In this document: in pieces, positions 6,011 through 57,893 of the stretch
How positions within the stretch are numbered: position 1 is the stretch's first letter
Layout: the number at the start of each line of letters is the position of its first letter
Source of the DNA: a virus
Taxonomy: Duplodnaviria > Caudoviricetes
DNA: 61,935 bases
Reading direction: 5' to 3' (one strand)
IMG/VR virus record: IMGVR_UViG_3300021976_000013
Coordinates: 1-61,935 of that record
Position numbers and translations under genes: made by a program
Notes under the pieces: model-generated
Databases searched by the model: none
What the model was told of the DNA's origin: nothing
What the model saw: only the letters and a program-made list of their open reading frames with translations

Positions 6011-6023
6011 TCGGATCAAGAAC

Positions 6024-6501: not shown

Positions 6502-6504
6502 TCA

Positions 6505-7996: not shown

Positions 7997-8000
7997 CGGG

Positions 8001-8510: not shown

Positions 8511-8520
8511 GGGGGAAACG

Positions 8521-9036: not shown

Positions 9037-9047
9037 GAAGGTTGATC

Positions 9048-9350
9048 ATGGAAATGGTGTGGATGTGCCATCCGAACCTTCCTGGTCAGGAGACGGAAGT
9101 ACCGGCATCGGCGATGCCCACTTACGGCATGTCCGGCTGGCTACTCATGGACGGGCCGCCAGAGCCGAAGCCGGATCCGGAAGTCGCTCGCGCGAGTGTG
9201 CACAGCGAGCCACGCGAAGAGCCGAGCGACTCCGAGAGCATGAAGCCGAAGGATCGCAAACCGGCCGACAAATCCACTGACACTAAAGAGTCAACCGGCG
9301 CTAAGGGATCTTCCAAGAGCGCTTCTAGCGCGAAAGGAAGTGATCACTAA
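9048..9350 (+). CDS. hypothetical protein
   Basis: RBS AGGAAGG; translationally coupled to the major tail gene. Confidence 0.65.
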   Translation: MEMVWMCHPNLPGQETEVPASAMPTYGMSGWLLMDGPPEPKPDPEVARASVHSEPREEPSDSESMKPKDRKPADKSTDTKESTGAKGSSKSASSAKGSDH

Positions 9351-9838: not shown

Positions 9839-9927
9839 GCGTGAGTGCATGGGCGTTCATGATCGGGACATTGCTCCCGATCATGTGCGTCATACCCGAG
9901 GGACGACGAGTTAGGAAGATCAACATC

Positions 9928-10344
9928 ATGGGAAGTCTGCTCAAAAAAGAAGACCTTTGGCAGATCACGGCCGACCTTCCGGCCGAAGAGGTCGAGGTGT
10001 TCGACTCTAACGGCAAGCTCGCAGGCGTGATCAAGGTTCGCGGACTCACCGGATCGGAGCTGACCAAGTATCAGGAGTCTCTGACGATCCGGCTGTCGAG
10101 CGGGCAGACCAGGCCAAACGTGAGATTCGCGATGGCCAAACTGATCGTCCTGACGGCGATCAACGACGACGGATCTCCGTATTTCGAGGTCAGCGACACA
10201 AAGCATCTCGACGACGCACCGGCCAAGATCCTGGTCCCGCTGTTCGAGTCGGCGCAGAGACTCTGCGGACTCACCGAGGACACGTTCAAGGAGATGACCG
10301 AGGGTTTCGAGCCAATGCCGAGCGAAGGTTCCGATTCCGACTAG
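9928..10344 (+). CDS. tail assembly chaperone (G)
   Basis: Between the major tail and tape measure genes; V.VRGLTG.E and LF..A..L.GL motifs. Confidence 0.85.
   Translation: MGSLLKKEDLWQITADLPAEEVEVFDSNGKLAGVIKVRGLTGSELTKYQESLTIRLSSGQTRPNVRFAMAKLIVLTAINDDGSPYFEVSDTKHLDDAPAKILVPLFESAQRLCGLTEDTFKEMTEGFEPMPSEGSDSD
10302..10308 (+). other. -1 programmed ribosomal frameshift site G GGT TTC
   Basis: In-frame X XXY YYZ heptamer; the -1 frame reads GFRANAERRFRFRLAMALGK... into ORF 10347-10592. Confidence 0.85.
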
Positions 10345-10592
10345 CCATGGCGCTCGGCAAGTCCATCTCCGAAGTCAACCAAATGTCCGCGTGGGAGATC
10401 AAGGAATGGGAAGCGTACGAGCGGGTAACCGGGCAGTTCGGACAGGAACGTAACGATCAGCTCGCGGCGATGCTGGCAAAAACGATCGTGAACCTCTTCC
10501 GGAGCAAGGGCAGCAAGACGGCAGTGACAACGGACTTCATACCGAAGTGGGGTTTCGAGGAGGTGAACGGGGATGGCCGGGAGCATCCGTAA
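10302..10592 (+). CDS. tail assembly chaperone frameshift extension (GT)
   Basis: R.LA..LG.S..E...MS..E..EW.AY pattern; reached by the -1 shift. Confidence 0.8.
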   Translation, partial: GFRANAERRFRFRLAMALGKSISEVNQMSAWEIKEWEAYERVTGQFGQERNDQLAAMLAKTIVNLFRSKGSKTAVTTDFIPKWGFEEVNGDGREHP

Positions 10593-19452: not shown

Positions 19453-20286
19453 ATGACGGTCCAGTGGATCACTAGAGCCGATCTTGGGTGGCCGTCCGAG
19501 CCGCGCGGCGGCTGGACGAACACCAACACGAACCTAGGCATGATCGCCCACTATGACGGCTCACGCGGCCTGCTCAGTCGGCACGCGGCGTCGGGGCACG
19601 CGGCGTGTGTGAGTTATTGGGAGGGCGCTCGGAACGCCCACATCAACGGCAACGGCTGGTCCGACATCGGGTATGCCTACTTCGTCTGTCCAGACCGGAA
19701 AGTCTTCGTCGGCCGGGGCTACGGTCACCAGCAGGCGGCCGAGCTTCCGACGTCGGGCAAGCTCCAGAACGGCAACGTCCGCTACATCTCGGTAACCTTC
19801 GGTACCGGGCCGGGCGAACGGCCGACCGATGACCAGCTCAAGGCATGGGCGGATCTTCGCGAGTGGTACCTGACGGAGAAGAACGGGCTACAGACCGTCT
19901 ACGGTCACCGAGACTTCACGTCCACCGACTGTCCGGGCGATGTGATCTTCCACATGACCCGAGATGGAACGCTCAAGGCGACGGCCATTCCGGACGTCAC
20001 GCCTACCCCGGAAGGTGATCTCTTGTCCAGCATGCCCATGCTCAAGGTCGGCGACCGAAGCACGGCCGTGCTCTCGCTTCGCGCTCTGCTCTTTGAGCGC
20101 TGGCTTTCCGCTCGGTGGGCCAACGATTCCACCGGGCTCTACACGTGGCTACGCGAGCAGGCGTTCACTCCGGATCTCCGGGTAGACGTGATCGCATACC
20201 AGAAAGATCGGTTCCCTGACGACTCCTCCCAATGGGATGGAATCGTGGGACCTCTCACATGGGGCAAGTTGCTCCAGGTGGTCTAG
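19453..20286 (+). CDS. endolysin: N-acetylmuramoyl-L-alanine amidase plus peptidoglycan-binding domain
   Basis: AHY, H...NGWSDIGY, GRG and GHRD..T.CPG amidase_2 motifs; DGIVGP.TW..L. Confidence 0.9.
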   Translation: MTVQWITRADLGWPSEPRGGWTNTNTNLGMIAHYDGSRGLLSRHAASGHAACVSYWEGARNAHINGNGWSDIGYAYFVCPDRKVFVGRGYGHQQAAELPTSGKLQNGNVRYISVTFGTGPGERPTDDQLKAWADLREWYLTEKNGLQTVYGHRDFTSTDCPGDVIFHMTRDGTLKATAIPDVTPTPEGDLLSSMPMLKVGDRSTAVLSLRALLFERWLSARWANDSTGLYTWLREQAFTPDLRVDVIAYQKDRFPDDSSQWDGIVGPLTWGKLLQVV

Positions 20287-29731: not shown

Positions 29732-32215
29732 ATGGGCGACGCCACTCTAGATCGCGATGCCGTGCGTGCGTGGTTCGTGCGGCTATACGGAGACATGGAC
29801 GGTGGTGAGCTGATCAACATCGTCCCCGTGGGTGACGATTGGTCCGGCAACACCGGATCGTGTTGGGATCTTGACGGCGTCGTGGACTTGATCACTCGGC
29901 TGGACGCTGGCAAGCCCGTAGGGATCTACCACCGGATCACCACTGTGATCAATCCTCCGGAACCGTACAAGAGGGGGGTAGCCAGAGATTCCCACATGCT
30001 CCCTGGTCTGTGGGCTGACATCGATATTGCCGGGCCTGGCCACAAGAGCAAGAAAGGAACCCTACCGGCCGACGAAGCGGCAGCTAGGAAGATCGTCGAA
30101 AACTCCTGCCTGCCTGCTCCGACGCTGTGGGTTCACTCGGGTGGCGGACTCTACCCGTGGTGGCTCTTCGATCACGCGGCCGAAGTCACCGATGACTCTT
30201 ACGAGTCAATCGCCAAGCTGTCCGTAGATCTTCATGCGGAGCTGAAGCGGTCGGCCGAAGAATTGGGCATGGCGTGCGAGCCCATGGCCGATCTTGCTCG
30301 GGTGCTTCGGGTGCCTGGCACAGTCAACCGAAAGGATGGACTGGCGCGGCCGTGTCGAGTGATCGACGATCACGGGCACACGTACGCGATCGAGGACATC
30401 CGCGAGGCAGTACCGGGCGGGGGTCAGATACCCATCGTGCTGGCCCCACAGGACATCTATGAGGACCTACCGGCTGGTCCCCCTTGCCGGGCTATGGATC
30501 GGAAGCTAGCGGCCGTTACAGGGGCTCTCAGGGACGCTGAGACGGGGTCCAGACATCGGACCGCGTTGTCTGCGGTCGGTTCGCTGGTCTGGCTCGGCAA
30601 CGTCGGGCACGCCGGTGCTCGGGAAGCGCTCGATCAGCTCGGTGAAGTGTTCGAGGAGATCAAGCCGTCGGTAGAGCAGGGCTCGAAAGGTAGTTCCTGG
30701 CAAGGGATGATCAGTTACGTCATCTCGCGGATCGAGGTCAAGGAAGATCGCCACTGCTGTGGAGAGTGGGCGTTCACCGAATCGCACATGGCCAACCGAG
30801 CGGCCGAAGAGATCTTGATCGGAACCTTCCGTTGGTCTGGCGGAATGAATTGGGTTCGGTGGACGGGCAAGATCTGGCGTCGGGTAGAAGATGCCGAGCT
30901 GTTCGAGGTGCTCAAACAATGGTTGCTTGACGGTTTCAAACGATCAAACCTCGCGTGGGCATCGAACCCTGCCGACAAGGCACTAGAAGGGGTCATGAAG
31001 GGGTGGCGTTCGATGTTGAGTCAGAACGCTATCGCGCACATCCTCAAGCTGGCTCAAGGTGTGCCAGGGGTGATCTTTGACGCGGCCGACATGGACGCTG
31101 ATCCGGATCTTCTGAACGCTCAGAACGGGGTAGTCGATCTCCGTACCGGTGAGCTGCTTGAGCACGATCACGGGCGGCTCATGTCCAAGATCGCTACATG
31201 TGCTTACGTGCCAGGCGCAACGCATGAGGACATGATCAAGGTCTTGTCCGCACTGCCGGAAGACGTTCGCGGTTGGATGCAAGATCGCATCGGGCAGAGC
31301 GCGACCGGGCACATGACGCCAGACGACCTCTTGTGCATCTTGCAGGGCTCAGGCCAGAACGCGAAATCGACGCTGTTGGAAGGGATCAGTACGGCGCTCG
31401 GCAGCTATCACACGATCGTCTCGGACCGCGTGGTCATGGGCGATATCACCCGAGACGAGATCATGGCTCTGCAAGGCGCGCGGTCGGTCTGGCTAGAGGA
31501 GACTCCCGAAGCTGCACACCTTGACATCGCCAAGCTGAAAAAGATCATCGGAACGTCGGACATCACCGGTCACCACCTGTACAAGTCTTCAGTCACATGG
31601 AAAGCGACACACTCTCTGTTCATCACCACCAACTATGTCCCCATGGTCAGCGAGACGGATCATGGAACATGGCGACGGCTGGCGCTGATCCGGTTCCCGT
31701 ACACCTTCACCAAAGATCCCGTAGGGGAATTCGAGCGGCTCTCGGATCCGACCCTTCGGCTAAGAGTCACCCGCGACGTCAAGATCCATGAAGCGTTCCT
31801 CGCATGGATCATCGAAGGCGCTCGGGAGTTCTACATGCGAGACATGGTCACGATGGACTGGCCGACCACTGTCCGGCGAGACACAGACGACTGGCGGGCC
31901 GATGTCGATCTAGTGATGGGCTACTGGCGTGATCGGCTCACTCATGATCCGACTCGTTACATCCTTTCAACGGACCTTCGTGCGGACTTCAACGAATGGA
32001 CCGAGCGGAAGGGTCATAAGGGCCTGTCCGAGAAAGTGTTCAACGCGAGATTTGCTGATCATACGGAGACGACTCGGGCGCACGTCCGGAAGGAGAGGAT
32101 CCGGACTAACGCTCCCGGACTGTCTAGGCCACACGAAAATGGGCCGAAAGCTCCCGAAAAGGCCATGACGTGGCAGGGTGTCCGTTTCCAAGACGACGAA
32201 GATCCGTTCAAATGA
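29732..32215 (+). CDS. DNA primase (RepB-type AEP) fused to a D5/SF3 helicase
   Basis: WADIDI..H, HSGGG, D.ARVLRVPGT.N.K; LN..NGVVDLRTG, GSGQNAKST, TN..P, D.G.WRR. Confidence 0.92.
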   Translation: MGDATLDRDAVRAWFVRLYGDMDGGELINIVPVGDDWSGNTGSCWDLDGVVDLITRLDAGKPVGIYHRITTVINPPEPYKRGVARDSHMLPGLWADIDIAGPGHKSKKGTLPADEAAARKIVENSCLPAPTLWVHSGGGLYPWWLFDHAAEVTDDSYESIAKLSVDLHAELKRSAEELGMACEPMADLARVLRVPGTVNRKDGLARPCRVIDDHGHTYAIEDIREAVPGGGQIPIVLAPQDIYEDLPAGPPCRAMDRKLAAVTGALRDAETGSRHRTALSAVGSLVWLGNVGHAGAREALDQLGEVFEEIKPSVEQGSKGSSWQGMISYVISRIEVKEDRHCCGEWAFTESHMANRAAEEILIGTFRWSGGMNWVRWTGKIWRRVEDAELFEVLKQWLLDGFKRSNLAWASNPADKALEGVMKGWRSMLSQNAIAHILKLAQGVPGVIFDAADMDADPDLLNAQNGVVDLRTGELLEHDHGRLMSKIATCAYVPGATHEDMIKVLSALPEDVRGWMQDRIGQSATGHMTPDDLLCILQGSGQNAKSTLLEGISTALGSYHTIVSDRVVMGDITRDEIMALQGARSVWLEETPEAAHLDIAKLKKIIGTSDITGHHLYKSSVTWKATHSLFITTNYVPMVSETDHGTWRRLALIRFPYTFTKDPVGEFERLSDPTLRLRVTRDVKIHEAFLAWIIEGAREFYMRDMVTMDWPTTVRRDTDDWRADVDLVMGYWRDRLTHDPTRYILSTDLRADFNEWTERKGHKGLSEKVFNARFADHTETTRAHVRKERIRTNAPGLSRPHENGPKAPEKAMTWQGVRFQDDEDPFK

Positions 32216-32220
32216 TCTTC

Positions 32221-32304
32221 TGGGCAGGGTGGGCAGGGTCTATCAGAACTTATTCATACGCCCGCGCGTGAGCAAGTCTGTGTAGACCCTGCCCACCCTG
32301 CCCA
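32221..32304. repeat. perfect 22-bp inverted repeat with G-quadruplex arms (candidate origin)
   Basis: TGGGCAGGGTGGGCAGGGTCTA / TAGACCCTGCCCACCCTGCCCA. Confidence 0.85.
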
Positions 32305-32406
32305 CGGATAGCCTAACTCGACCTATTTGGACAGGCTCATCTTACCCGTTGGTTACTATGGATCCATGACATGATGGCAAGGTAATCCCTCCCGAGAGGA
32401 ACGATC

Positions 32407-44307: not shown

Positions 44308-44624
44308 GATCAATTGGACGTTAGTAGGGGCACCCTCGCGGGTGCCCGATGATCACTTTCCCTTACGCTCGCGGCGCTTCTGTTCTCTTTCTGCGGCAGC
44401 AGCTCCCCAACGACCGCTACGAAGATCACTTATGCGATCTTGCATTCTCTGGTGATCTCGTCTGAGTTCGGCATCCCAACGGAAGAACATGGTGGCGATG
44501 GCGATGAACGGAACGGAGACGGCGATCAAGACGGAGATAAAAACGATGGTGTCCGACATGCTGTGATCCTTTCTGTCGGCTGTAGATCAATTGGACGTTA
44601 GTAGGGGCACCCTCGCGGGTGCCC
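44308..44624. repeat. identical 40-bp direct repeats (44308-44347, 44585-44624) flanking one gene
   Basis: GATCAATTGGACGTTAGTAGGGGCACCCTCGCGGGTGCCC twice. Confidence 0.95.
44353..44559 (-). CDS. small membrane protein
   Basis: N-terminal TM; RBS AAAGGA. Confidence 0.65.
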   Translation of the reverse strand: MSDTIVFISVLIAVSVPFIAIATMFFRWDAELRRDHQRMQDRISDLRSGRWGAAAAEREQKRRERKGK

Positions 44625-48059: not shown

Positions 48060-48728
48060 TCAGAATCCTCTCGCGAATTGGATGATCTGGTAAGCCAGCG
48101 TGACCAAGATCCCGATCACGACGGCTACGAAAAAGATCTTCTCTCCTGTCTTGCCGGTGGTGAAGAGATCGAGCGTGTACCGGCGCTTGGACAGTGGCCA
48201 GAAGATCGGGCACCCTCGATCGGTGAGGCAGTCACCGGCGATGTGCACGAACGCGCCAAGCATGAGTGCGGCTGGCACGATCCGGAGATCGATATCCGTG
48301 AGCCACACCACCAAGATCACTATGACTGCGGCGGCTATGTCGTCGATCCATCCGGGGATCTTGGCGAGTCGGACCACTGCGGCCACCGAGAGGACCATGA
48401 GCCAGCACAACGCGATCAAGCCAGCGGGTGAATGCCGGTAGATCAAGGCCATTTGCGCGCCGATGCCGAGCACGACCACGAACAAGATCGAATGTGTGCC
48501 ATGCCGGTGCGGGCCGAACACGAAAATGATCAATCTGCTGGATACCCACGAGAGCGGTCCGAGTGATCGCGTCATCGTCGCCTTGTGATGATCAAGGTCG
48601 TTGATCATCGCTGCCCCGGTAGTGATCAGTAGGCCGACCAGAACGCTGGTCATGCCAAGATCCCAAAGCAACGTGGCACCCCCGAATGCGAGGGTGCCAG
48701 TAGCCGCGTGCGTTCGACCAAGAGCCAC
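48060..48728 (-). CDS. membrane-bound metal-dependent hydrolase (YdjM-like)
   Basis: TH, D.DH, HR..THS and H..GD.LT..G.P.FWP motifs; multiple TMs. Confidence 0.85.
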   Translation of the reverse strand: MALGRTHAATGTLAFGGATLLWDLGMTSVLVGLLITTGAAMINDLDHHKATMTRSLGPLSWVSSRLIIFVFGPHRHGTHSILFVVVLGIGAQMALIYRHSPAGLIALCWLMVLSVAAVVRLAKIPGWIDDIAAAVIVILVVWLTDIDLRIVPAALMLGAFVHIAGDCLTDRGCPIFWPLSKRRYTLDLFTTGKTGEKIFFVAVVIGILVTLAYQIIQFARGF

Positions 48729-49157
48729 TTACGTGGTCTTCAGGATCGTTGGGCCTTCAGAAGCCGGGTTGTGCTCCAGATCCGGGTACGCGCCCGAATC
48801 GAACGAGTCTACGAAGCGCACCACGCTGCGCGGGTAGTCTATGATCACTCCGGCACCGTGGTAGTCGAGATCCAGCCACGCATGACCGGCGAGCACGGTC
48901 CAGTCGGCACCGAGGATGGATCTTGCGAGCCGGGCGATCGGGCACTCTGCGGAGCTGCCCACAAGCCCCTTGATTCCCCTCGCTGCGAGACACCCGGCGA
49001 CGATGTCAGCCGTTTCACCGAGTGAGCCGAGCACTTCGCGAAGGGTCTGGAGCTGGGCGGTCTGAACGTCGGTGAGCATGGTGATACTCCTGTCCGGGAT
49101 GTGGATCATTGCGGGTGGGTTGAATCTTGGGCCGACACGGAGTGGTGTGATCTTCAT
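48729..49157 (-). CDS. hypothetical protein
   Basis: L...GI.G.....CPIA...FV..FD.G.YP.L motif. Confidence 0.65.
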   Translation of the reverse strand: MKITPLRVGPRFNPPAMIHIPDRSITMLTDVQTAQLQTLREVLGSLGETADIVAGCLAARGIKGLVGSSAECPIARLARSILGADWTVLAGHAWLDLDYHGAGVIIDYPRSVVRFVDSFDSGAYPDLEHNPASEGPTILKTT

Positions 49158-49444
49158 CAGTTCTTAGAAGATCGTCCGGTCACGCCGTTGATGTGATCGC
49201 GAAGCTCGTCATGGGACAGCTTGCGCATTTCTGTCGCTTCCTTGATCTTGTCGGCGATCAGCGCAGCCATCTCGGCACGTACCAAGTCGGCACCGTGATG
49301 CTGACCGTAGTGGTACGTGCCAAGTCCCCACGTACCAAGCGCGGCCATCGTCAGGACCACAGTCCAGACCGGGCCGGTTTGGTACGTGGCGGCGGTCGCG
49401 AGCGCGAGACCGATAGCTAGGAGGATCTTGGACATCCTGCACAT
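49157..49444 (-). CDS. 2-TM membrane protein
   Basis: RBS GGAAGG; two hydrophobic helices. Confidence 0.6.
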   Translation of the reverse strand: MCRMSKILLAIGLALATAATYQTGPVWTVVLTMAALGTWGLGTYHYGQHHGADLVRAEMAALIADKIKEATEMRKLSHDELRDHINGVTGRSSKN

Positions 49445-49494
49445 GATCGAACTTCCTTCCGTTTGAAGACGTACAGTGCCCACTGTTTCACACC

Positions 49495-49591
49495 CTTGCC
49501 ATCCGGGCAAGGTACCTATCAGGTACGCTTGACTACAGGGCAAGGGTGATCCATACTGGAGGCTTACGTACCTGATTGACACACAGACAAG
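49495..49591. promoter_or_regulatory. divergent promoter region with three 17-bp operators
   Basis: Operators at 49495, 49528 and 49575; TTGACT-17-CATACT promoter for the tra/spd operon. Confidence 0.75.
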
Positions 49592-49601
49592 GCGGTGAGC
49601 A

Positions 49602-49898
49602 ATGGCTAAGGATCTTGAGCAGCGGGGGCGTGGCACGGTGGCACCGATCGCTACCGGTGGCGACCAGCTCATGCCCTTCGTACCGGCACCGCGTTCCAGT
49701 GGCTCGGGTGCCACTGATAAGGACTACCTAGCGGTCCGTCCCCCAGCAAACGGGCGTATCCAGGCAAAATGGTCGGCGATCATCACGCCGTACCGGGCTA
49801 CGCTGCACTTCCGGTTGTGGATCACGTTCACCTGGTGGCGAGTGATGCTCTTGGTATCCGTGATCATCGGAGTGATCGTCCTGATCAAGATCGCATAA
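49602..49898 (+). CDS. small membrane protein (Spd-like by context)
   Basis: C-terminal TM; first gene of the tra/spd operon. Confidence 0.55.
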   Translation: MAKDLEQRGRGTVAPIATGGDQLMPFVPAPRSSGSGATDKDYLAVRPPANGRIQAKWSAIITPYRATLHFRLWITFTWWRVMLLVSVIIGVIVLIKIA

Positions 49899-49923
49899 AC
49901 GTTCCAGAAAGGAACACAAGATC

Positions 49924-51060
49924 ATGAGCATTCTCAGCAAGCCGAAGCCCAAGCCGCTATCGGTTAAGATCAAGGAAGCTGCGCAGCTTGCCGAGCTTGA
50001 CGCGGTCGAGCGGGCCGCACAGTTCAAGCGCGAGCAGGAAGAGGCCGAGCGGAACGTCTGGCGTGCGGAGCAGGCCAAAGCGGCACGTACCGAAACGGCC
50101 GAGCTGACCAAGTCGGCACGTGCCGCGCGGCTGGCCGAGATGGTTCCGTACATTCCACTGATCTTGGTGAACGTTGCGGCGATCACCGGTCAGTACGGGT
50201 GGGCGATCGACAACCTGACGGAGATCGGCAGCGACACGCATGATCCCGTTCGGTGGCTGGCCGCCGCTCTGTTCGCCTTCACGGCTGAATCGATCGCTCT
50301 GTTCCTTCAGTACTACGCGAACCGAGCGTTGCGGAACCGGGACAGCGCGTTGACCTTGTACCTGTCGGCCTTCCTGGTCGCCGGTCTGGTCGCGACGGTC
50401 AACTACTCGCACTGGTCAACGCACAGTTCGGACAAAGATCTCTTGGGATCTCCGACTCCGACGGCCGTGATCTTCGCCCTCTGTTCGCTGGCTTCCCCGT
50501 GGCTCTGGCGGATCCACAACCGGGCTGAGTACCGGGAGGTTCTGAAGAAAGCCGGGGAGATCGACACTCGCGCGGTCAAGCTCTCGCTAGCTCGCAAGAT
50601 CATGCACCCGTACCGGTCTTTCATGGTCATCTGGAATTCGTCGTGGAAGGGTGACCAGACTCCGGCCGAAGCGGTCGCGGCATGGGACAAGATCCATGAC
50701 GAGAGGGTCGCTCGCAAGATCGAGCGGAAGCGTCAGGCGCGGGCCGACAAGGCGGCTGAGAGGGCCGCTAAGGCAGAGCCGGTACCGGCAGACCAGGAAG
50801 CCGTGATCAAGCCGCAGGCACCGGCTCAGCGCGCTCCCAAGGCACCTGCGGGCGTAGGCGTGGGACCGAGCCATCCGAAGTGGGCGGAAGGCGTTCGGAT
50901 CTACGAAGCGAGCAAGGCAGGTCCGGGACGTTCGCTCAGTCAGCGTGATCTAGCAGGGCATCTCAACATGAGCAATAGAGATCTTGCTACCGCGATCAAG
51001 AAATTCGTAGACGAAAGAGATCAAAATGCGATCAACAACGTTGCGCCTTCGTCCCCCTGA
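49924..51060 (+). CDS. SpdB2/DUF2637-like spread protein
   Basis: N-terminal coiled coil, four TM helices, Pro/Ala linker, C-terminal HTH (SQRDLA..L.MS). Confidence 0.65.
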   Translation: MSILSKPKPKPLSVKIKEAAQLAELDAVERAAQFKREQEEAERNVWRAEQAKAARTETAELTKSARAARLAEMVPYIPLILVNVAAITGQYGWAIDNLTEIGSDTHDPVRWLAAALFAFTAESIALFLQYYANRALRNRDSALTLYLSAFLVAGLVATVNYSHWSTHSSDKDLLGSPTPTAVIFALCSLASPWLWRIHNRAEYREVLKKAGEIDTRAVKLSLARKIMHPYRSFMVIWNSSWKGDQTPAEAVAAWDKIHDERVARKIERKRQARADKAAERAAKAEPVPADQEAVIKPQAPAQRAPKAPAGVGVGPSHPKWAEGVRIYEASKAGPGRSLSQRDLAGHLNMSNRDLATAIKKFVDERDQNAINNVAPSSP

Positions 51061-52867
51061 TCGGACGACGAAGCGGCAACCGAAGGGCGCTTGGGACGAA
51101 CTGTCCCGAGCGCTGTTTCGCTATCGAGTCGAGTTCTTTCCGATCTTGCTGGCCTTTTGGCTCTATGTGATCACTGCGGTCATGGGACCTCGCCTGCCTT
51201 GGGTAGTACCTGGCACGCTGGCGCTAGGTGCCATCCTGACGTACCAATTCGGTGGCCGGTGGAACCTGCCAAGGTTCCATCTGGCACGCCGGGAGCGTGC
51301 CTATGCGGCGGCCGTGATGGCATGCCTTGGCACGTGGGCATGGTTCGCAGTGGCACTCTCCGAGAGTGCCAAACCGAGCCTGCGATGGACCCTGATCTTG
51401 CTTGGCATGTGCGTGCCACTCTCGATTCCGTGGCTTTGGCACCGACGGATCCAAGGTTCCGTATTGGTCACGTTCGAGCCGATGCGCTCGGGTGCCAGTC
51501 GGCGCGAAAGTCGGGACTGGAATCGCTGGCACCGGGAGATGACCCACCGTGCGCGCGAAGTGGTCGCGTCGTGGGATGGCATGATCCATGGCACGTCCGC
51601 GCTAGGTTCCAAGCTGGTCGCGATCCATTTCGACGCATGGTCTGTGGAGTGCTCCGTCCGTCTGGCACATGCCAGGGTGGCGGAAGACTTCACCGAGCTA
51701 CGGCTACGGCGGCTTGAGTCTGCCTTCATGGCCAAGCGGGACAGCGCTCGGACTGACTACGCGACCGGTAAGGGTGCCAGCGCTCGGGACGCCAAGATCA
51801 AGTTCATGTTCCAGGATCCGCATGCCGAACCGATCATCCCGACGGATGATGATCTCACTCCGGACATGGATCTGACCGTGGACATCGGGCGGTTCGAGAA
51901 CAACATTCACGTGATCATCGACTTGATCCATACGCTGGTGGCCGGTGCTTCCGGAGCTGGCAAGTCGGCGATCATCAACGCGATCATGCGTGGCTTGATC
52001 CGTAAGCCGCACGTGGCGATCGTAGGGATCGATCTCAAGCCGGGCGGCCTTGAGCTTGGCAAATGGGAAGAGGCGATGTACGCGCTCGCGACGACCGGGC
52101 CGCAGGCCAAGACCCTGCTCACGGGGATCTTGAACGGCATCGGCCGACGCGGCGAGATCATGAAAGCTCGCGGGATCCGGAAGTGGGTCGCGACCGAGGC
52201 AGAGCCGTTCGTGGTCTTGATCATTGACGAAGTCCAAGCGCTGAAAGAGTTCCGGCTGTTCGCCACGCTGACAAAGATCAGTGAGCTGAGCAGGGCATAC
52301 GGCTTCGCGATGATCGTCGCTACTCAACACCCGAAAGATTCCAGCGTGCCGACGGGAGCAATCGCGAACTGCACGCAGCGGATCGGACTTCAGTGCAACG
52401 CGAGCACGGCCGAGCGGCTGATCTTCGATGACAACGCGACTCGGGAGGGCTGGCGGTTGACCAAGCTTCCGGGTGATCGAGAGGGAACCTTCCTGGTCAA
52501 GAGCAAGCGGCACCGTAGGCCGATGCGCGCTCGCTGCCACTGGCTTGACGATCACCATGTCGAGCGGGAAGCAAGATCGTTCGCAGCGACGACGACAGCG
52601 ATCGATCCGGGCACGTGGGGGGATGATCTCTTGGCGATCGATCCGCCCGACGAAGGGACGGAGATCATCGATGTTCAGGTGATCGTCGAGAACGGGCCGG
52701 AAGATGTGATCATGACATTGATCGGTTCCGGCCGGGCTCGGACGCCTTCCAAGATCAGTGAGCTGTCTCAGATCCCTGTACGCACAGTGAATGTCCTGCT
52801 CAAAAAGCTGGCGTCCGAGGGAAAGGTGATCCAAGACGGAGCACGGAAACCATGGTCGCTAACGTGA
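51026..52867 (+). CDS. TraB-like FtsK/SpoIIIE DNA translocase
   Basis: N-terminal TMs; H.LVAGASGAGKS, IDLK.G.EL, LIIDE, RA.G...VATQ.P; C-terminal winged HTH. Confidence 0.9.
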   Translation: MRSTTLRLRPPDRTTKRQPKGAWDELSRALFRYRVEFFPILLAFWLYVITAVMGPRLPWVVPGTLALGAILTYQFGGRWNLPRFHLARRERAYAAAVMACLGTWAWFAVALSESAKPSLRWTLILLGMCVPLSIPWLWHRRIQGSVLVTFEPMRSGASRRESRDWNRWHREMTHRAREVVASWDGMIHGTSALGSKLVAIHFDAWSVECSVRLAHARVAEDFTELRLRRLESAFMAKRDSARTDYATGKGASARDAKIKFMFQDPHAEPIIPTDDDLTPDMDLTVDIGRFENNIHVIIDLIHTLVAGASGAGKSAIINAIMRGLIRKPHVAIVGIDLKPGGLELGKWEEAMYALATTGPQAKTLLTGILNGIGRRGEIMKARGIRKWVATEAEPFVVLIIDEVQALKEFRLFATLTKISELSRAYGFAMIVATQHPKDSSVPTGAIANCTQRIGLQCNASTAERLIFDDNATREGWRLTKLPGDREGTFLVKSKRHRRPMRARCHWLDDHHVEREARSFAATTTAIDPGTWGDDLLAIDPPDEGTEIIDVQVIVENGPEDVIMTLIGSGRARTPSKISELSQIPVRTVNVLLKKLASEGKVIQDGARKPWSLT

Positions 52868-52975
52868 GTTTCCGCAGGTCAGAGACCCGGACCCCTTGAT
52901 CGTCATGAGGTGGTCCGGGTGTACCCAACTAGGGGTGTAGCCCCTTAGAATGCAGCTCAGGGCCGTACAGAGCCA
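52868..52975 (+). repeat. dispersed ~100-bp element, copy F
   Basis: GTTTCCGCAGGTCAGAGAC...CTCAGGGCCGTACAGAGCCA starting right after the traB stop. Confidence 0.85.
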
Positions 52976-53059
52976 TGTGACAGGCTGTAGCGCTTGCCAG
53001 CACGGCAAGATGTGAGATGATGAGATCACACGTTCCGATCCCGAGGGAAAGAGTCGATC

Positions 53060-53569
53060 ATGGGCATAACAAAGATCGTTCTGGACATCCGCAACCTGGC
53101 TGACCGGTGGTCGTACGATTCCCAGAATCACGCGGAGACCAAGATCTCCGTAGTCAAGGCGGTCGGCGAGCTTCGTCAGCTCGCGTATGACATCGAGTAC
53201 GGCATCAAGATCGATTCGGTGGACTGGGACGGGTCCATCCCCGAGCCGGTCAAGATCGCGTGGTGGCAGCGCCAGCTCGTCTCAAAGGATCTTGGCCTTA
53301 GCGTGGGGTCGGCCATCGGATTCACGATCTTCACAGTCTTCGTGATCATGGGCTTTAAGATCGACACTGCCTTCCTGGCCTTCGCGATCATTGCTCTGAT
53401 CATGGCCGAGAAAATGTTCGGGATCTGGGAGCCGGAGAACGACGAGATCGATTCAGGTCCGATCTTGAGCCGAGAGCAAGTGATCATGCTCGGTGGCTGG
53501 CTCAACGACAAGATCAGCCAGGCCAAGAGCAAGATCAAGCCTAAGAAATCCGATCTTGAGGAGGAGTAA
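53060..53569 (+). CDS. 2-TM membrane protein
   Basis: Operator at 52993; two TMs. Confidence 0.65.
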   Translation: MGITKIVLDIRNLADRWSYDSQNHAETKISVVKAVGELRQLAYDIEYGIKIDSVDWDGSIPEPVKIAWWQRQLVSKDLGLSVGSAIGFTIFTVFVIMGFKIDTAFLAFAIIALIMAEKMFGIWEPENDEIDSGPILSREQVIMLGGWLNDKISQAKSKIKPKKSDLEEE

Positions 53570-54322
53570 TCGATCATGAGTTCTGTTGCCTCGCGCGGGC
53601 GTGCGCACACGCACGCTCGTGCAGGCGCAAGCGCAAGCGCACGCAATATGTGACGCGCGCATGACGTGGGAAAATGACCGGAAATAAGCGCAAATGATCT
53701 TGAAACAACTGATCGCTTGCGCTTATTTTGATCAAGAAAATCGGGGCTGGAGGATCAAGATGATCTTAAAGAACAGGAGTCAGCAGCCCGAGCACCAACA
53801 TTTTGTGATCACGTGCGGACCCTGCGGCTATCAGTTCCCATCGTGCGGGATACCGTGTTTCGCGATCTGTCCGGCATGTGTGACGATCTTGACTCTCTGG
53901 GAGGATTCGTGATCGAAACGATCTTGAGTAGGCTGGCTCGGCGAATCCACATCTGGTGGATCTTCCGGAAGCGGCAACGGACCAACATCGAAGGACCTGG
54001 CCAAATGATGTGGATCATGGGCCGATGGTATGTGATCACGATGATCGAATCTGATCGTCGGCTCGGTGAAGCAAGCTTGGTGACCGTAAGAGGTCAAGAT
54101 CCTATGAGTTACTACGACCGGCATTGGATCAAGAGGAGTGATCTTCGTGGGTGAACACAGCCGCATGCCCGACAGTCGGTGGGATCTGCTCTGGCAGATC
54201 ACGCAGAATCCGATGAAGGCTCAGACAGCACGTACCAAGATCGAATATTGGTGCCGTCTCGGTACGCTGGTGGCACTGATCGTTATCACTCTGGCACTCG
54301 GTACCTACGGAGTGGTACAGAC

Positions 54323-56453: not shown

Positions 56454-56933
56454 GTGGCATGGAAACTGATCGTTTGCTCACTGATGACCAGCGCACCGCA
56501 GGCCATCCCTCCGAATACCTACACGATCTTGAAATTCCCGTTCGACAACGAATCGGCCGACGCACCGAGCTTGCATGATCCCAAGCAACCGGATACCGGC
56601 CTGACGACGACTGCCAGCAACCCGCGTTCCGGCCTGATCTGGCCTGCCCATGTCGGATGGGCACATCTGAACGGGCTGATCTACTGGCAAGGCGGCGACT
56701 ACACCGAGGTTCGAGATCGGTTCGTCAGAGATCCACTGGAGCTGACCACCGGATACGACTCGACGTGTACGGAAGATCACGCCAAGACTCCAGGCGGGCA
56801 GTACCTCGCGAAGAACTGGGATATGTTCGTTCATCCCCTGACGTCGGTCGGCCTGCTCGTCCAGCACAACGGCTCACGATCGGTCAAGGTGGATTTCGCG
56901 GAATTCAAGATGTCCTATTGGGTGGATCTCTGA
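56454..56933 (+). CDS. hypothetical protein, possibly a virion beta-sandwich protein
   Basis: Coupled to the glucosaminidase gene (TGATG). Confidence 0.65.
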   Translation: MAWKLIVCSLMTSAPQAIPPNTYTILKFPFDNESADAPSLHDPKQPDTGLTTTASNPRSGLIWPAHVGWAHLNGLIYWQGGDYTEVRDRFVRDPLELTTGYDSTCTEDHAKTPGGQYLAKNWDMFVHPLTSVGLLVQHNGSRSVKVDFAEFKMSYWVDL

Positions 56934-57451
56934 TGCTGCCGATCATGGCACCCCCGACGATCCCCCTGCTCACGATCAAGCGGAACGCGATCCGGCTCGA
57001 CGCGTCCGAGTGGTATCTCAAGGCTCTGGTGGCGCTCTGGGACGCTGGCCGCTGGTGGGGTGTGGATCCGCTCGTACTCGCGGCGCAATGCGCTAAGGAG
57101 ACTTCCTACGGCCGCTTCGGTGGCGCTGTGGTTCCCGGCATGGGCAACACATGCGGGCTGAAGATCCGGAACGCTACCGGCGATCTCAAGGATGATCACG
57201 CGGTGTTCCCGATGGCTGACGGCTTCCCGATAATCGGGGCTGTAGCGCACGCTCACCACTTGCGGCTGTATGCGGGCTTCCCGGTACCGATCGATTCCCC
57301 CGATCCGCGAGCGGTCTATCTGGGACCAGGTACGACCAATTTTGGGAGTGCTCCCCTGGTCGCTCTGCTCGGCGGTCGGTGGGCACCGGCACCGAGCTAC
57401 GGCGTGCAAGTTGAGGGGATCATGGCCAAGCTGGCGAGTACGAGTGTGTGA
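56933..57451 (+). CDS. GH73-like glucosaminidase (peptidoglycan hydrolase)
   Basis: GVDP....AQ...ET.YG.F, N.CGLK, F.....G..AH...L and L.GRWA....YG motifs. Confidence 0.8.
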   Translation: MLPIMAPPTIPLLTIKRNAIRLDASEWYLKALVALWDAGRWWGVDPLVLAAQCAKETSYGRFGGAVVPGMGNTCGLKIRNATGDLKDDHAVFPMADGFPIIGAVAHAHHLRLYAGFPVPIDSPDPRAVYLGPGTTNFGSAPLVALLGGRWAPAPSYGVQVEGIMAKLASTSV

Positions 57452-57506: not shown

Positions 57507-57893
57507 ATGGCTGACAACCTAACCGACATTGCCGAAGGTCTAGTGATCGACTGGCTGAATCCAGTGCTCACGGCACCGACGCGGCCGACATCCCCGCTCA
57601 AGGCTCGGCTCTATACGATCATCGGGACTGAATCTGCGGCTGGCACTGAAGTAACCGGTGGATCTTACGCGCAACAGACGGCTACGTTCCCTGCTCATAC
57701 CGGTGGCGTCGCGCTCAACACGAACTTGATCTCTTATACGCTCATGCCAGCGTGCACGGTGGTAGCGGTCGAGATCTGGGATAACGCGGGTGTGGGTCGG
57801 CTCTGGTGGGGACCACTCGCGGCTAACAAGGTCGTCAACCTAGGCGATACGTTCACCTTCCCTATCGGCTCACTCTCGATTGCGATCACCTGA
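57507..57893 (+). CDS. virion / tail-fibre-associated protein
   Basis: LYT......GTEV.GG.YA.Q...F and G.L...K.V..GD.F..P.G.L motifs; RBS AGGAG. Confidence 0.7.
   Translation: MADNLTDIAEGLVIDWLNPVLTAPTRPTSPLKARLYTIIGTESAAGTEVTGGSYAQQTATFPAHTGGVALNTNLISYTLMPACTVVAVEIWDNAGVGRLWWGPLAANKVVNLGDTFTFPIGSLSIAIT

What the first reader, a model, noticed from the sequence alone, without database searches (positions are those of the whole stretch)
49495..53569. Intact virion-making phage carrying a Streptomyces-plasmid-type TraB/Spd transfer module and no integrase
Seen: one operon with its own promoter and operators. It encodes a small TM protein, a coiled-coil + 4-TM + HTH protein (49924-51060), and an FtsK-family ATPase with N-terminal TMs and a C-terminal winged HTH (51026-52867); a further membrane protein follows. 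Known: this matches the TraB and SpdB2 architecture that actinomycete plasmids and AICEs use to move dsDNA between hyphae and across septa. Also seen: complete head, tail and lysis genes, two ParB-like genes, two XRE proteins, and no recognisable integrase or ParA. Inference: this may be a phage or phage-plasmid that spreads its genome cell-to-cell through mycelium without virions, under the same operator as the other early genes. This is my best candidate for the undescribed system.
Basis: partly seen in the sequence, partly recalled or inferred. Interest (0 to 1): 0.9.

Follow-up and report, generated by a model that had tools for sequence, protein, structure and literature searches.

The report
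Phage-borne TraB/SpdB-like DNA transfer module
A soil actinobacterial phage carries a conserved gene pair resembling the machine that Streptomyces plasmids use to pump double-stranded DNA between cells, so it may move its genome from cell to cell without virions, which remains untested.

Summary
51026-52867 encodes a membrane-anchored FtsK-family ATPase with a C-terminal winged helix. It aligns with pIJ101 Tra through both the motor and the winged helix (hhalign 99.1%). 49924-51060, overlapping it by 35 nt, encodes a long-helix + 4-TM + HTH protein from a divergent branch of DUF2637. The pair (DUF2637-type gene, then TraB-like gene) recurs in 4 of 4 related viral records. It also recurs on an actinomycete plasmid. 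It sits behind a promoter/operator motif shared with the WhiB, ParB-like and PolA genes.

The record is a metagenomic contig (CheckV 85%), not an isolate. It has head, tail and lysis genes and no integrase or ParA. Two apparently complete relatives also lack integrases.

Limits:
- The ATPase is not inside the NF041214 TraB clade (47.8 bits against a cut-off of 800). It forms its own phage clade.
- The 98-aa and 169-aa genes are not conserved.
- The host is unknown.
- Thoma et al. 2015 already suggested that phage SpdB2 homologues might spread phage DNA.

Verdict: a real, conserved phage variant of a known kind. Virion-free spread is plausible but unproven.

The parts
48060..48728 (-). YdjM-family integral membrane hydrolase-like gene. 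It is a conserved neighbour of the module and is transcribed divergently from it.
   Evidence: PF04307 YdjM E 4.4e-20. Six hydrophobic segments. A homologue (32-41% identity) lies just upstream of the module in L001, L002, L003 and L004.
49157..49445 (-). Small minus-strand ORF, probably starting near 49445 and not at 49714, with a hydrophobic N-terminus. It holds the densest cluster of the TTGGTACGTG motif.
   Evidence: ORF listing, sequence read, hydropathy. No family match.
49276..49388 (.). Four copies of TTGGTACGTG (<=1 mismatch), arranged as two inverted pairs. This is a candidate cis site: either a clt/TRS-like target of the winged helix or a regulator's operator.
   Evidence: 13 matches in the window against 1.96 expected; 0 of 100 shuffles reached 13. 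11 of the 13 lie between 47773 and 54539, binomial P 1.7e-9. GGTACGTG-type copies also lie near the module in L001-L004.
49494..49557 (+). Two copies of the inverted-repeat promoter/operator motif (CCTTGCC-N5-GGCAAGG at 49494; GCTTGAC-N5-GGCAAGG at 49527). They overlap a TTGACT-17-CATACT promoter-like site.
   Evidence: The same motif lies upstream of the WhiB gene (20827), the ParB-like gene (27530) and the PolA gene (32364).
49602..49898 (+). 98-aa ORF with one C-terminal membrane helix. Coding status is uncertain and it is not conserved.
   Evidence: ORF, TM at 80-98. No family. No counterpart in L001-L004. The GC3 signal is shared with an antisense ORF.
49924..51060 (+). SpdB2-like protein from a divergent DUF2637 branch: N-terminal long helix, four membrane helices, a disordered linker and a C-terminal HTH.
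   Evidence: AF2 model with pLDDT 78.9. 78 relatives. 708 cluster representatives at E<=1e-3. DUF2637 is matched by 8 of 31 and 15 of 101 family members. The family HMM hits a plasmid DUF2637 protein at 3.6e-11. The window's own protein misses PF10935.
51026..52867 (+). TraB-like dsDNA translocase: four N-terminal membrane helices, an FtsK alpha/beta motor with invariant Walker A (G307..G312 K313 S314) and Walker B (D401 E402), a linker and a C-terminal winged helix. Its start overlaps the upstream gene by 35 nt.
52992..53021 (+). A further copy of the promoter/operator motif, with TTGCCA-16-GATGAT, ahead of the 169-aa gene.
53060..53569 (+). 169-aa protein with two membrane helices. It is strongly coding (GC3 0.81) but is not a conserved part of the module.
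   Evidence: No family. No counterpart in L001-L004.

Best explanation
The locus is a genuine, lineage-conserved phage version of the actinomycete Tra/Spd double-stranded-DNA transfer apparatus. It has two core parts. The first is a DUF2637-type membrane protein (long helix, 4 TM helices, HTH). The second is a translationally coupled TraB-like ATPase: a membrane-anchored FtsK motor that presumably forms a hexameric pore, plus a C-terminal winged helix that would select the DNA. A divergently transcribed YdjM-like membrane hydrolase accompanies them.

The pair is transcribed from the same promoter/operator class as the phage's WhiB, ParB-like and DNA polymerase genes, so it would be made while the genome replicates.

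Most likely mechanism (inferred, not shown): the winged helix binds a phage cis site, for which the TTGGTACGTG cluster next to the module is a candidate. The motor then pumps unprocessed phage dsDNA through the membrane or septal cross-wall, helped by the SpdB-like channel protein, into the adjoining compartment or a touching cell. One adsorption event would then seed several compartments before lysis.

Shown here: homology, architecture, conservation, gene pairing and shared regulation.
Inferred: the substrate, the direction of pumping and cell-to-cell spread.

My odds: about 0.85 that this is a TraB/Spd-type translocation module, and about 0.35-0.4 that its role is intercellular or intercompartment spread of the phage genome.
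For: ATPase:
- PF01580 and phrog_1358 match. Among NCBIfam models the best is plasmid_TraB (47.8 bits), ahead of FtsK (22.7) and EssC (21.1).
- hhalign of the 32-member family against pIJ101 Tra gives 99.1%, E 1e-18, over 412 columns. The match includes the wHTH (query 568-603 to Tra 597-631). That stretch of Tra is a MarR_2 match in Pfam.
- The AF2 model (pLDDT 85.3) shows 4 N-terminal helices, a motor and a wHTH. Foldseek finds the FtsK motor at 2e-17 and the conjugation coupling protein TcpA at 5e-16.
- Walker A and B residues are invariant in 32 of 32 sequences.
- In the ATPase-domain tree the chromosomal FtsK group (100*) and the EccC group are separate. The window sits in a 100* phage clade, on the same weakly supported (64) side as the NF041214 TraB group and the AICE-like proteins.
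- The family profile scores AICE-like chromosomal proteins at 233-285 bits, chromosomal FtsK at 62-95 and EccC at 24-52. One such relative lies in a low-GC island with a NUDIX gene and a large serine recombinase. NUDIX Pif is an AICE hallmark (PMC2440964, passages).
- In the Atlas structure search, TraB clusters give TM 0.55-0.59 and FtsK clusters 0.50-0.52.

Partner protein:
- The model matches the published SpdB2 layout of an N-terminal coiled coil, four TM helices and a C-terminal domain (PMC4447253, passages).
- DUF2637 is matched by 8 of 31 and 15 of 101 relatives.
- PF10935 hits the gene directly upstream of the TraB-like gene in 4 of 4 related viral records, 2 of them over the cut-off.
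- The same order, DUF2637 then FtsK-like, follows a GntR gene on a Saccharopolyspora plasmid.
- DUF2637 genes lie next to, or 2 kb from, NF041214-type TraB genes in G030 and G159.

Integration into the phage:
- Synteny with phage genes on both sides in L001-L004.
- Uniform GC content.
- A shared promoter motif.
- The same phage at 95-99+% identity in short contigs from three further soil samples.
- The cis-motif cluster next to the module.
Against: - The ATPase is far below the curated TraB cut-off (47.8 against 800 bits). A chromosomal FtsK scores 63.6 bits on the same model, so that hit alone is not specific.
- The phage family profile scores NF041214-type TraB proteins (30-77 bits) no better than chromosomal FtsK.
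- The branch that joins the phage clade with the TraB groups has only 64 SH-aLRT support in a quick tree. pIJ101 Tra falls elsewhere on a long branch.
- The 378-aa protein itself misses PF10935.
- Its family shows no significant profile match to pIJ101 SpdB, to phiC31 gp12 or gp25, or to the two DUF2637 proteins beside NF041214 TraB genes.
- No GntR-type TraR/KorA regulator appeared among the 48 ORFs scanned with Pfam.
- The host is unknown, so a mycelial lifestyle is assumed, not shown.
- FtsK-like genes are common in Streptomyces phages, including virulent ones, and no function has been shown for them.
- The TTGGTACGTG cluster could equally be an operator.
Confidence: 0.45

Rival explanations
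1. Intracellular DNA handling. The membrane-anchored FtsK-like motor, perhaps with the two ParB-like proteins, clears or positions replicating phage DNA at closing septa. Alternatively it drives phage genomes into developing spores, giving a carrier state or spore entrapment, with no movement between vegetative cells.
For: The motor is structurally an FtsK/SpoIIIE motor. Two ParB-like genes are present and ParA is absent. No integrase is present, so persistence would need another route. Published notes link phage FtsK-like and WhiB-like genes to host development without giving data (PMC13587820, passages). The phi29 spore-entrapment precedent is recalled from memory and was not checked here.
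Against: The protein lacks the FtsK alpha and gamma domains that the chromosomal hits carry (PF17854 and PF09397 are absent). It groups away from the FtsK clade (100*). Its conserved partner is an Spd/DUF2637-type membrane protein, and its nearest cellular relatives sit in AICE-like transfer elements. None of these is expected for a purely segregational role.
Confidence: 0.2
2. Exclusion or host takeover. The pair sits in the membrane to expel or block incoming DNA of competing phages or plasmids, or to interfere with host FtsK, cell division or envelope integrity. SpdB2 permeabilises membranes, so the pair may help lysis or takeover and not move the phage's own genome.
For: PHROGs files the matching family under 'moron, auxiliary metabolic gene and host takeover'. 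SpdB2 forms pores and promotes lysozyme access (PMC4447253, passages). The pair is expressed from an early-type promoter. It is flanked by small, poorly conserved membrane proteins.
Against: The winged helix is retained across the family and the Walker motifs are invariant. That points to sequence-directed DNA pumping. A motif is concentrated around the module. Conservation with 32-67% identity across about 40 full-length relatives suggests a core function, not a moron.
Confidence: 0.15
3. Phage-plasmid with conjugative transfer. The element persists as an extrachromosomal prophage and uses TraB/Spd to conjugate between hyphae.
For: No integrase is present in the record or in 4 of 4 relatives. 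One relative has terminal repeats and one is rated 100% complete. Two XRE regulators and two ParB-like genes are present. Streptomyces records of about 130 kb filed as plasmids carry a related FtsK-like gene, as does the 129-kb phage Gilgamesh.
Against: No ParA was found. No plasmid-type Rep or GntR repressor appeared among the 48 ORFs scanned with Pfam. The replication genes are phage-type: D5 primase-helicase, PolA and a helicase. The module carries the promoter motif of the replication genes, which suggests lytic-cycle expression.
Confidence: 0.1
4. Assembly chimera: a plasmid or AICE fragment was joined to a phage contig.
For: The record is a metagenome assembly with no terminal repeats. 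No single contig in the other runs spans the whole region.
Against: The same gene order, with phage genes on both sides, occurs in four other viral records. GC is even across the window at 0.556-0.628. The genome-wide promoter motif occurs inside the module region. GATC is enriched 5.6-fold in the window and 4.1-4.9-fold in relatives. Contigs from independent soil samples bridge 49167-49878, 49268-50058 and 52600-53637.
Confidence: 0.03

Closest known systems
TraB/Tra with Spd proteins of Streptomyces conjugative plasmids (pSVH1, pIJ101) and AICEs (pSAM2 type)
   Same: The ATPase is a membrane-anchored FtsK-family motor with a C-terminal winged helix. It aligns with pIJ101 Tra across both the motor and the winged helix. 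It is paired and translationally coupled with a multi-TM Spd-type protein (the operon with translational coupling is described in PMC4447253). Its nearest cellular relatives lie in an AICE-like island.
   Different: The module lies in a tailed-phage genome with no Rep, integrase or GntR repressor. It scores 47.8 bits against an 800-bit cut-off on NF041214 and forms a separate clade. The partner does not match pIJ101 SpdB. The classical 8-bp TRS/clt (recalled from memory, not checked here) was not identified; only a candidate 10-mer cluster was found.
'FtsK-like DNA translocase' of cultured Streptomyces phages (e.g. Gilgamesh gp10)
   Same: It is a phage-encoded protein of about 600-670 aa with an FtsK-like domain. 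It is 33% identical over residues 287-512, scores 181 bits on the family profile and is the sister group in the tree (84). Its function is unknown in the literature read.
   Different: Gilgamesh is a 129-kb phage with a tyrosine integrase. Its annotated neighbours show no DUF2637 gene upstream. The A2 and A4 profiles did not hit its locus. The window's lineage comprises 40-62-kb phages without integrases.
SpdB2 homologues noted on actinophages phiC31 and VWB (Thoma et al. 2015, refs 34 and 35)
   Same: This is the idea that an Spd-type membrane protein on a phage may help spread phage DNA (PMC4447253, passages). The window shares portal, protease, capsid, primase and polymerase genes with phiC31 at 27-36% identity.
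   Different: phiC31 gave no PF10935 match. Neither gp12 nor gp25 matched the family profile. phiC31 has no TraB-like gene in its annotation and does have an integrase. Here the Spd-like gene is coupled to a TraB-like motor.
TcpA, the FtsK-like coupling protein of Clostridium perfringens plasmid pCW3
   Same: It is the best solved-structure relative by sequence (E 2.4e-9) and close to FtsK by fold (5e-16). It is a conjugation ATPase with N-terminal membrane helices.
   Different: TcpA works within a multi-protein single-strand conjugation system with a relaxase (recalled from memory). No such genes were seen here.
Chromosomal FtsK/SpoIIIE
   Same: The same motor fold.
   Different: Those proteins are 700-1000 aa with FtsK_alpha, 4TM and gamma domains. 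They form a 100* separate clade.

Membership tests
TraB (actinomycete conjugative dsDNA translocase) | FtsK/SpoIIIE motor domain with intact Walker A and Walker B | tested here: met
   PF01580 E 3.1e-7. FtsK motor by Foldseek at 2e-17. G307, G312, K313, S314, D401 and E402 are invariant in 32 of 32 sequences.
TraB (actinomycete conjugative dsDNA translocase) | N-terminal membrane anchor | tested here: met
   Hydrophobic segments at 31-137. Four helices at 38-142 in the AF2 model. This is a prediction only.
TraB (actinomycete conjugative dsDNA translocase) | C-terminal winged helix-turn-helix (the clt/TRS recognition domain) | tested here: met
   Modelled as H-H-H-beta-beta at 558-612. It aligns with the MarR_2-type C-terminus of pIJ101 Tra. 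Relatives carry HTH Pfam domains.
TraB (actinomycete conjugative dsDNA translocase) | Score over the curated NCBIfam model NF041214 (plasmid_TraB) | tested here: not met
   47.8 bits against a cut-off of 800. A chromosomal FtsK reaches 63.6 bits on the same model. pIJ101-type Tra proteins are themselves too far from that family to be found by tblastn at 1e-10, so the functional class is broader than the model.
TraB (actinomycete conjugative dsDNA translocase) | Phylogenetic placement with plasmid/AICE TraB and away from FtsK or EccC | tested here: inconclusive
   The quick IQ-TREE used 67 rows that I chose. FtsK forms a 100* group and EccC an 81 group, both elsewhere. The window lies in a 100* phage clade next to the large-phage FtsK-like group (84). 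It shares a side with NF041214 TraB and the AICE-like proteins at only 64 support. pIJ101 Tra sits on a long branch on the other side.
TraB (actinomycete conjugative dsDNA translocase) | A cis-acting clt with short repeats bound by the winged helix | tested here: inconclusive
   TTGGTACGTG gives 13 matches against 1.96 expected, and 11 of the 13 lie within 6.8 kb around the module. Similar words lie near the module in relatives. Binding was not tested, and the site may be an operator.
TraB (actinomycete conjugative dsDNA translocase) | Carried on a plasmid or AICE with Rep, integrase and a GntR repressor (TraR/KorA) | tested here: not met
   The genome is a phage genome. No integrase was found. 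No GntR or plasmid Rep appeared among the 48 ORFs scanned with Pfam.
TraB (actinomycete conjugative dsDNA translocase) | Mediates transfer of dsDNA between cells | not testable with these tools
   This needs genetics in a host.
SpdB2 / DUF2637-type spread protein | Integral membrane protein with four transmembrane helices | tested here: met
   Helices at 70-97, 108-138, 142-164 and 179-202 in the AF2 model. Four hydrophobic segments.
SpdB2 / DUF2637-type spread protein | N-terminal coiled-coil region and a separate C-terminal (DNA-binding) domain | tested here: met
   A long helix at 12-97 and a three-helix HTH at 320-371. This matches the layout described for pSVH1 SpdB2 (PMC4447253, passages). 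Coiled-coil formation and DNA binding are not shown.
SpdB2 / DUF2637-type spread protein | Sequence match to Pfam DUF2637 (PF10935) | tested here: inconclusive
   The window's own protein has no match. 8 of 31 and 15 of 101 relatives match, best 4.2e-11. The counterpart gene matches in 4 of 4 related phages, 2 over the cut-off. Atlas clusters at 0.92 carry DUF2637 in 13-16% of members. Clusters with SpdB_N and HTH_SpdB_C score only 0.84, which is a lead only.
SpdB2 / DUF2637-type spread protein | Sequence similarity to a named Spd protein | tested here: not met
   hhalign against pIJ101 SpdB gives probability 0.2%. pSVH1 SpdB2 could not be fetched, so the namesake itself was not tested. That DUF2637 corresponds to SpdB2 rests on gene neighbourhood, not on a named sequence.
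SpdB2 / DUF2637-type spread protein | Encoded next to, and co-expressed with, the TraB-type translocase | tested here: met
   A 35-nt overlap with the TraB-like gene. The same pairing occurs in L001-L004 and on plasmid locus L045.
Chromosomal FtsK/SpoIIIE | FtsK_alpha and FtsK_gamma domains, length of about 700-1000 aa | tested here: not met
   PF17854 and PF09397 were not found, whereas the chromosomal hits carry them. The FtsK clade is separate.
Type VII secretion EccC/EssC | Two or three tandem FtsK-like ATPase domains within an ESX locus | tested here: not met
   There is a single ATPase domain. EccC models score 12-21 bits. The EccC group is separate in the tree.
Phage-plasmid | Plasmid maintenance genes (ParA/ParB partition, plasmid Rep) alongside virion genes | tested here: not met
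   No ParA was found. Only ParB_N/DUF6551-type genes are present. The replication genes are phage-type.

The most novel reading that the evidence does not exclude
A whole lineage of integrase-less soil actinophages carries its own conjugation-like 'movement' machine. While replicating, the phage would pump naked double-stranded genomes through septal cross-walls, or into touching hyphae, using a TraB-like motor and an SpdB-like channel. A single infection would then spread through a multicellular host without virions. That would be a bacterial counterpart of plant-virus movement proteins and a third route between infection and conjugation.
Probability: 0.3. Interest if true: 0.9.

Novelty: new variant of a known kind. 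Interest (0 to 1): 0.62.

Why it matters
Phages of mycelial bacteria face a host divided into compartments, and how an infection crosses cross-walls is an open question. If a phage-encoded TraB/SpdB pair moves phage DNA between compartments or cells, three things would follow. It would blur the line between viral infection and conjugation. It would explain why FtsK-like genes are so common in actinophages. It would also give a simple two-gene system for studying dsDNA passage through Gram-positive envelopes.

The finding makes this testable. The family is large: about 40 full-length ATPase relatives and 708 cluster representatives of the partner protein. Related FtsK-like genes exist in cultured Streptomyces phages. 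A candidate cis site lies next to the genes.

If the module instead serves exclusion or segregation, it is still a conserved early function of a poorly known phage lineage.

Tried and rejected
- DNA searches of the module and of 1-25000 against 50,697 phage records found nothing.
- The scan of species-representative genomes with the ATPase family returned only generic FtsK-domain hits at 24-32% identity among the 80 loci kept.
- The complex prediction (TraB-like residues 1-300 with the 378-aa protein) gave no answer, score 0.00. It counts neither for nor against binding.
- Foldseek of the 378-aa model against the PDB found no match at E<=0.001. Against BFVD there was one unnamed hit at 6e-6. 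DUF2637 phage proteins and phiC31 gp25 appeared only at E of 0.07-0.5.
- hhalign of the family against phiC31 gp12 and gp25, pIJ101 SpdB, and two DUF2637 proteins beside NF041214 TraB genes was not significant in any case. The last four templates were single sequences.
- pSVH1 could not be fetched by the accession I recalled, so SpdB2 itself was never compared.
- No RNA holder was listed among the public runs, so nothing can be said on expression.
- Contigs from the other soil runs are short, and none spans the module together with both flanks.
- No tRNA genes were found.
- Cluster look-up of seven relatives gave no informative names.
- Supplementary tables of Thoma et al. 2015 and Ghinet et al. 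2011 were not seen. They may list phage Spd/Tra homologues.
- Literature searches for a phage-borne TraB plus Spd pair found only the Thoma 2015 remark and passing notes on FtsK-like genes. The searches were: TraB+Streptomyces+bacteriophage+FtsK; FtsK-like+actinobacteriophage (28); DUF2637 (36); SpdB2+phage (46); Streptomyces phage+FtsK+mycelium (52); phage-plasmid+Streptomyces+conjugative (99); actinophage+TraB (126). Subscription journals are not covered.

Full report
WHAT THE RECORD IS

The window is the whole of one IMG/VR viral record: 61,935 bases, classed linear, CheckV completeness 85. It is therefore a metagenome-assembled phage genome and not an isolate.

It encodes:
- an HNH protein and a large terminase at the left end;
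- portal, S78 prohead protease, HK97-type capsid and tape measure;
- an endolysin at 19453-20286 and a second endolysin-like gene at 56657-57451;
- a WhiB-HTH protein, which points to an actinobacterial host;
- a PD-(D/E)XK nuclease, an SF2 helicase, two ParB-like genes, a D5-type primase-helicase and a family A DNA polymerase;
- two XRE-type genes over the Pfam cut-off.

No tyrosine integrase, resolvase or large serine recombinase domain and no ParA-type ATPase was found in six-frame family searches. No tRNA genes were found.

It has no nucleotide-level relative among 50,697 phage records. Its terminase is at most 33% identical to those of Gordonia, Rhodococcus, Nocardia and Mycobacterium phages. 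Its portal, protease, capsid, primase and polymerase are 27-36% identical to those of phiC31.

Near-identical DNA occurs in soil metagenomes from at least three samples other than the likely source.

THE OBSERVATION

The 613-aa protein (51026-52867) carries PF01580 and matches phrog_1358 'FtsK/SpoIIIE-like' at 2e-35. An AlphaFold model built on 32 relatives (pLDDT 85.3, pTM 0.70) shows:
- four N-terminal hydrophobic helices (38-142);
- an alpha/beta plus RecA-like motor (146-520);
- a disordered linker;
- a helix-helix-helix-hairpin winged helix (558-612).

Foldseek puts the FtsK motor first (2e-17, about 410 aligned columns). The pCW3 conjugation coupling protein TcpA follows at 5e-16 and EccC at 8e-13. 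Walker A and Walker B residues are invariant across the family.

The 378-aa protein (49924-51060) has no Pfam, NCBIfam or named PHROG match of its own. Its model (pLDDT 78.9) shows:
- one long helix at 12-97, running into the first of four membrane helices (up to residue 202);
- a disordered linker;
- a three-helix HTH at 320-371.

This is the layout published for pSVH1 SpdB2: a coiled coil at 1-99, four TM helices and a C-terminal domain at 206-409 (PMC4447253, passages read).

The two genes overlap by 35 nt, and the conserved N-terminus of the ATPase family confirms its start.

The 98-aa and 169-aa membrane ORFs are real open frames but have no counterpart in relatives. The 169-aa gene also has its own promoter-like site. 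'One operon of four genes' is therefore too strong. The conserved unit is the pair plus a divergently transcribed YdjM-family membrane hydrolase gene at 48060-48728.

IS IT PART OF THE PHAGE?

Yes.
- The ATPase has about 40 full-length relatives at 32-67% identity in metagenomes. The partner has 78 word-indexed relatives and 708 cluster representatives by profile search.
- Ten contig lengths are shared between the two hit lists, which suggests co-residence. This is indirect.
- Four IMG/VR records carry YdjM-like, 4-TM-HTH and TraB-like genes in the same order. They also hold homologues of the window's helicase, nuclease, tail and other genes.
- Three of those four records encode an HK97-type capsid.
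- GC content is even across the window.
- Short contigs from other soil samples bridge the edges of the module.

An assembly chimera is very unlikely.

None of the four relatives has a tyrosine or serine recombinase. One has direct terminal repeats and one is rated 100% complete. Lack of an integrase therefore looks like a trait of the lineage and not a gap in this contig.

WHAT THE ATPase IS RELATED TO

Named models rank plasmid_TraB (47.8 bits) above FtsK (22.7), EssC (21.1) and EccC (12-15). However, 47.8 bits is far below the 800-bit cut-off. As a control, a chromosomal FtsK scores 63.6 bits on the same model. That hit alone therefore proves little.

Stronger evidence:
- The family profile aligns with pIJ101 Tra at 99.1% probability over 412 columns, from the alpha/beta domain through the motor to the C-terminal winged helix. 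That stretch of Tra is a MarR_2 match in Pfam.
- A scan of 401 Actinomycetes genomes with NF041214 found 10 with a match at E<=1e-30 and 2 over the cut-off.
- Scored with the phage family profile, a subset of those proteins (about 530-660 aa) reaches 233-285 bits over almost the full length. FtsK-like proteins of large phages reach 130-200 bits, chromosomal FtsK 62-95, pIJ101 Tra 76, classical NF041214 TraB 30-77 and EccC 24-52.
- One of the closest chromosomal relatives lies in a 51-64% GC island beside 72-75% GC DNA. The island holds a NUDIX gene and ends at a 525-aa serine recombinase. That is an AICE-like element. NUDIX Pif is the pSAM2 immunity factor (PMC2440964, passages).

I built a quick maximum-likelihood tree of the ATPase domain with 67 rows that I chose: 14 from the phage family, 6 AICE-like, 11 of about 40 large-phage proteins, 8 other small actinomycete FtsK-like proteins, 8 NF041214 TraB, pIJ101 Tra, 1 plasmid protein, 12 FtsK and 6 EccC. 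In it:
- the window lies in a 100* phage clade;
- that clade is sister (84) to the large-phage group that includes Gilgamesh gp10;
- both share a side with the AICE-like and NF041214 TraB groups at only 64 support;
- chromosomal FtsK (100*) and EccC (81) lie on the other side;
- pIJ101 Tra also lies there, on a long branch.

The protein is outside FtsK and EccC. It is TraB-like in architecture and nearest kin. It is not a member of the curated TraB family.

WHAT THE PARTNER IS RELATED TO

The window's protein itself misses PF10935. The links to DUF2637 are these:
- 8 of 31 close relatives and 15 of 101 of the best profile hits match it, best 4.2e-11. It is the only recurrent family apart from C-terminal HTH domains.
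- The family HMM hits a 605-aa DUF2637 protein of a Saccharopolyspora plasmid at 3.6e-11. That protein is followed by a 657-aa FtsK-like gene and preceded by a GntR regulator.
- PF10935 hits the gene immediately upstream of the TraB-like gene in all four related viral records, two over the cut-off. In L001 and L003 that gene is a shorter 4-TM + HTH protein without the long N-terminal helix.
- In two genomes with bona fide TraB, a DUF2637 gene lies directly downstream of traB (G030:C20) or 2 kb upstream of it (G159:C4).
- The protein atlas gives DUF2637-bearing clusters at 0.92. At 0.84, which is a lead only, it gives clusters with the newer Pfam families SpdB_N and HTH_SpdB_C.

Against this:
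- Profile comparisons with pIJ101 SpdB, phiC31 gp12 and gp25, and the two TraB-adjacent DUF2637 proteins were not significant.
- phiC31 gave no PF10935 match.
- I could not obtain pSVH1 SpdB2.

I therefore call the protein SpdB2-like by architecture, family neighbourhood and gene context. I do not call it a demonstrated SpdB2 homologue.

REGULATION AND CIS SITES

A TTGACT-17-CATACT site lies at 49529-49557. It overlaps the second of two copies of an inverted repeat, CCTTGCC-N5-GGCAAGG (49494, 49527).
- With up to 2 mismatches the motif occurs 9 times against 0.18 expected.
- With up to 3 mismatches it occurs 18 times against about 3.
- Most copies lie just upstream of genes: WhiB (20827), 22385, the ParB-like gene (27530), PolA (32364), 35806 and the 169-aa gene (52992).

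Separately, TTGGTACGTG (<=1 mismatch) occurs 13 times against 1.96 expected.
- 11 of the 13 lie between 47773 and 54539, binomial P 1.7e-9.
- Four lie as two inverted pairs at 49276-49388, inside the small minus-strand gene next to the module.
- Related words occur near the module in the four relatives, most clearly in L003.

This is a candidate target for the winged helix, in the manner of a clt. It could equally be an operator. I cannot tell which.

MECHANISM AND RIVALS

The best-supported reading is that the pair forms a membrane DNA-translocation device of the Tra/Spd kind, made during replication, that moves phage dsDNA across a membrane or septum.
- Cell-to-cell or compartment-to-compartment spread is the function that fits the homologues best. 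It is inference. I put it at about 0.35-0.4 within an overall 0.85 that the module is of the TraB/Spd type.
- Rivals are: an intracellular segregation or spore-loading role (0.2); exclusion or host takeover (0.15); a conjugative phage-plasmid lifestyle (0.1, weakened by the absence of ParA, Rep and a repressor of the GntR type); and an assembly artefact (0.03).
- The host is unknown, so a mycelial host is an assumption.

WHAT IS KNOWN ALREADY

- Thoma et al. [quoted passage not shown]
- FtsK-like genes are repeatedly noted in Streptomyces phage genome papers without a tested function (bioRxiv 10.1101/2024.02.16.580700, PMC13587820, PMC11536984; passages).
- Ghinet et al. 2011 used PF01580 as the Tra marker of AICEs and noted that such hits may lie in prophages (PMC3218068, passages).
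- In seven full-text searches I found no description of a coupled TraB-like plus DUF2637/SpdB-like pair conserved in an integrase-less phage lineage. Subscription journals and supplements were not searched.

VERDICT

The feature is real and conserved. It is a phage-borne variant of a known kind of system. Interest 0.62.

Noticed in passing
whole window; also L001, L002, L003: GATC is 5.6-fold over-represented (1250 against 224 expected from base composition). It is 4.1-4.9-fold over-represented in three related viral loci. CTAG (0.41) and TGCA (0.48) are depleted. This might reflect methylation, a GATC-binding host protein or selection by restriction systems. It remains unexplained.
   Followed up: partly
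window 20827, 22385, 24398, 27530, 32364, 35357, 35806, 46155, 49494, 49527, 52992: A genome-wide promoter/operator motif, (C/G)CTTG(A/C)C-N5-GG(C/T)CAAGG, whose first half doubles as a -35 box. It lies ahead of the WhiB, ParB-like, PolA and other + strand genes. The regulator that reads it was not identified.
   Followed up: partly
window 32172-32305: Two tandem TGGGCAGGG units (32221-32239) face two ACCCTGCCC units (32286-32305), with a further copy at 32172. They lie in the gap between the primase-helicase and PolA genes. This is a candidate replication origin or ParB-type site.
   Followed up: no
window 56657-57451: A second endolysin-like gene (phrog_8124, 2.7e-10) lies far from the endolysin at 19453-20286, in the right arm near a Gp80-like gene at 57507-57893.
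   Followed up: no
PLSDB records CP108533.1, NZ_CP070374.1, NZ_CP108441.1, NZ_CP122459.1, NZ_CP107821.1: Five Streptomyces records of 129-133 kb, filed as non-mobilizable plasmids, carry an FtsK/SpoIIIE gene related to the window's. Their size is that of phage Gilgamesh (129 kb), which carries the same kind of gene and a tyrosine integrase. They may be phage-plasmids or episomal prophages.
   Followed up: no
L156 (G357:C321) 1-12000: A 51-64% GC island sits in a genome of about 73% GC. It holds an O-methyltransferase, a NUDIX gene, a full-length relative of the phage TraB-like gene and a 525-aa serine recombinase at its edge. It looks like an AICE of a type not covered by NF041214.
   Followed up: partly
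L023 7510-9183: In a 135-kb viral contig, the 557-aa protein directly upstream of the FtsK-like gene is weakly hit by the SpdB2-like family profile (E 3.6e-6). The pairing may therefore extend to some large phages.
   Followed up: no
window 50741: The 95-99% identical variant in two soil runs of one sample has a 12-nt in-frame insertion in the low-complexity linker of the 378-aa gene. This is consistent with the frame being under coding constraint.
   Followed up: no
window 44326-44617: GGGGCACCC and its complement occur as two close pairs (44327/44340 and 44604/44617) flanking a small minus-strand ORF. One variant contig replaces 44349-44650 with 57 other letters. This may be a small mobile or variable cassette.
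   Followed up: no
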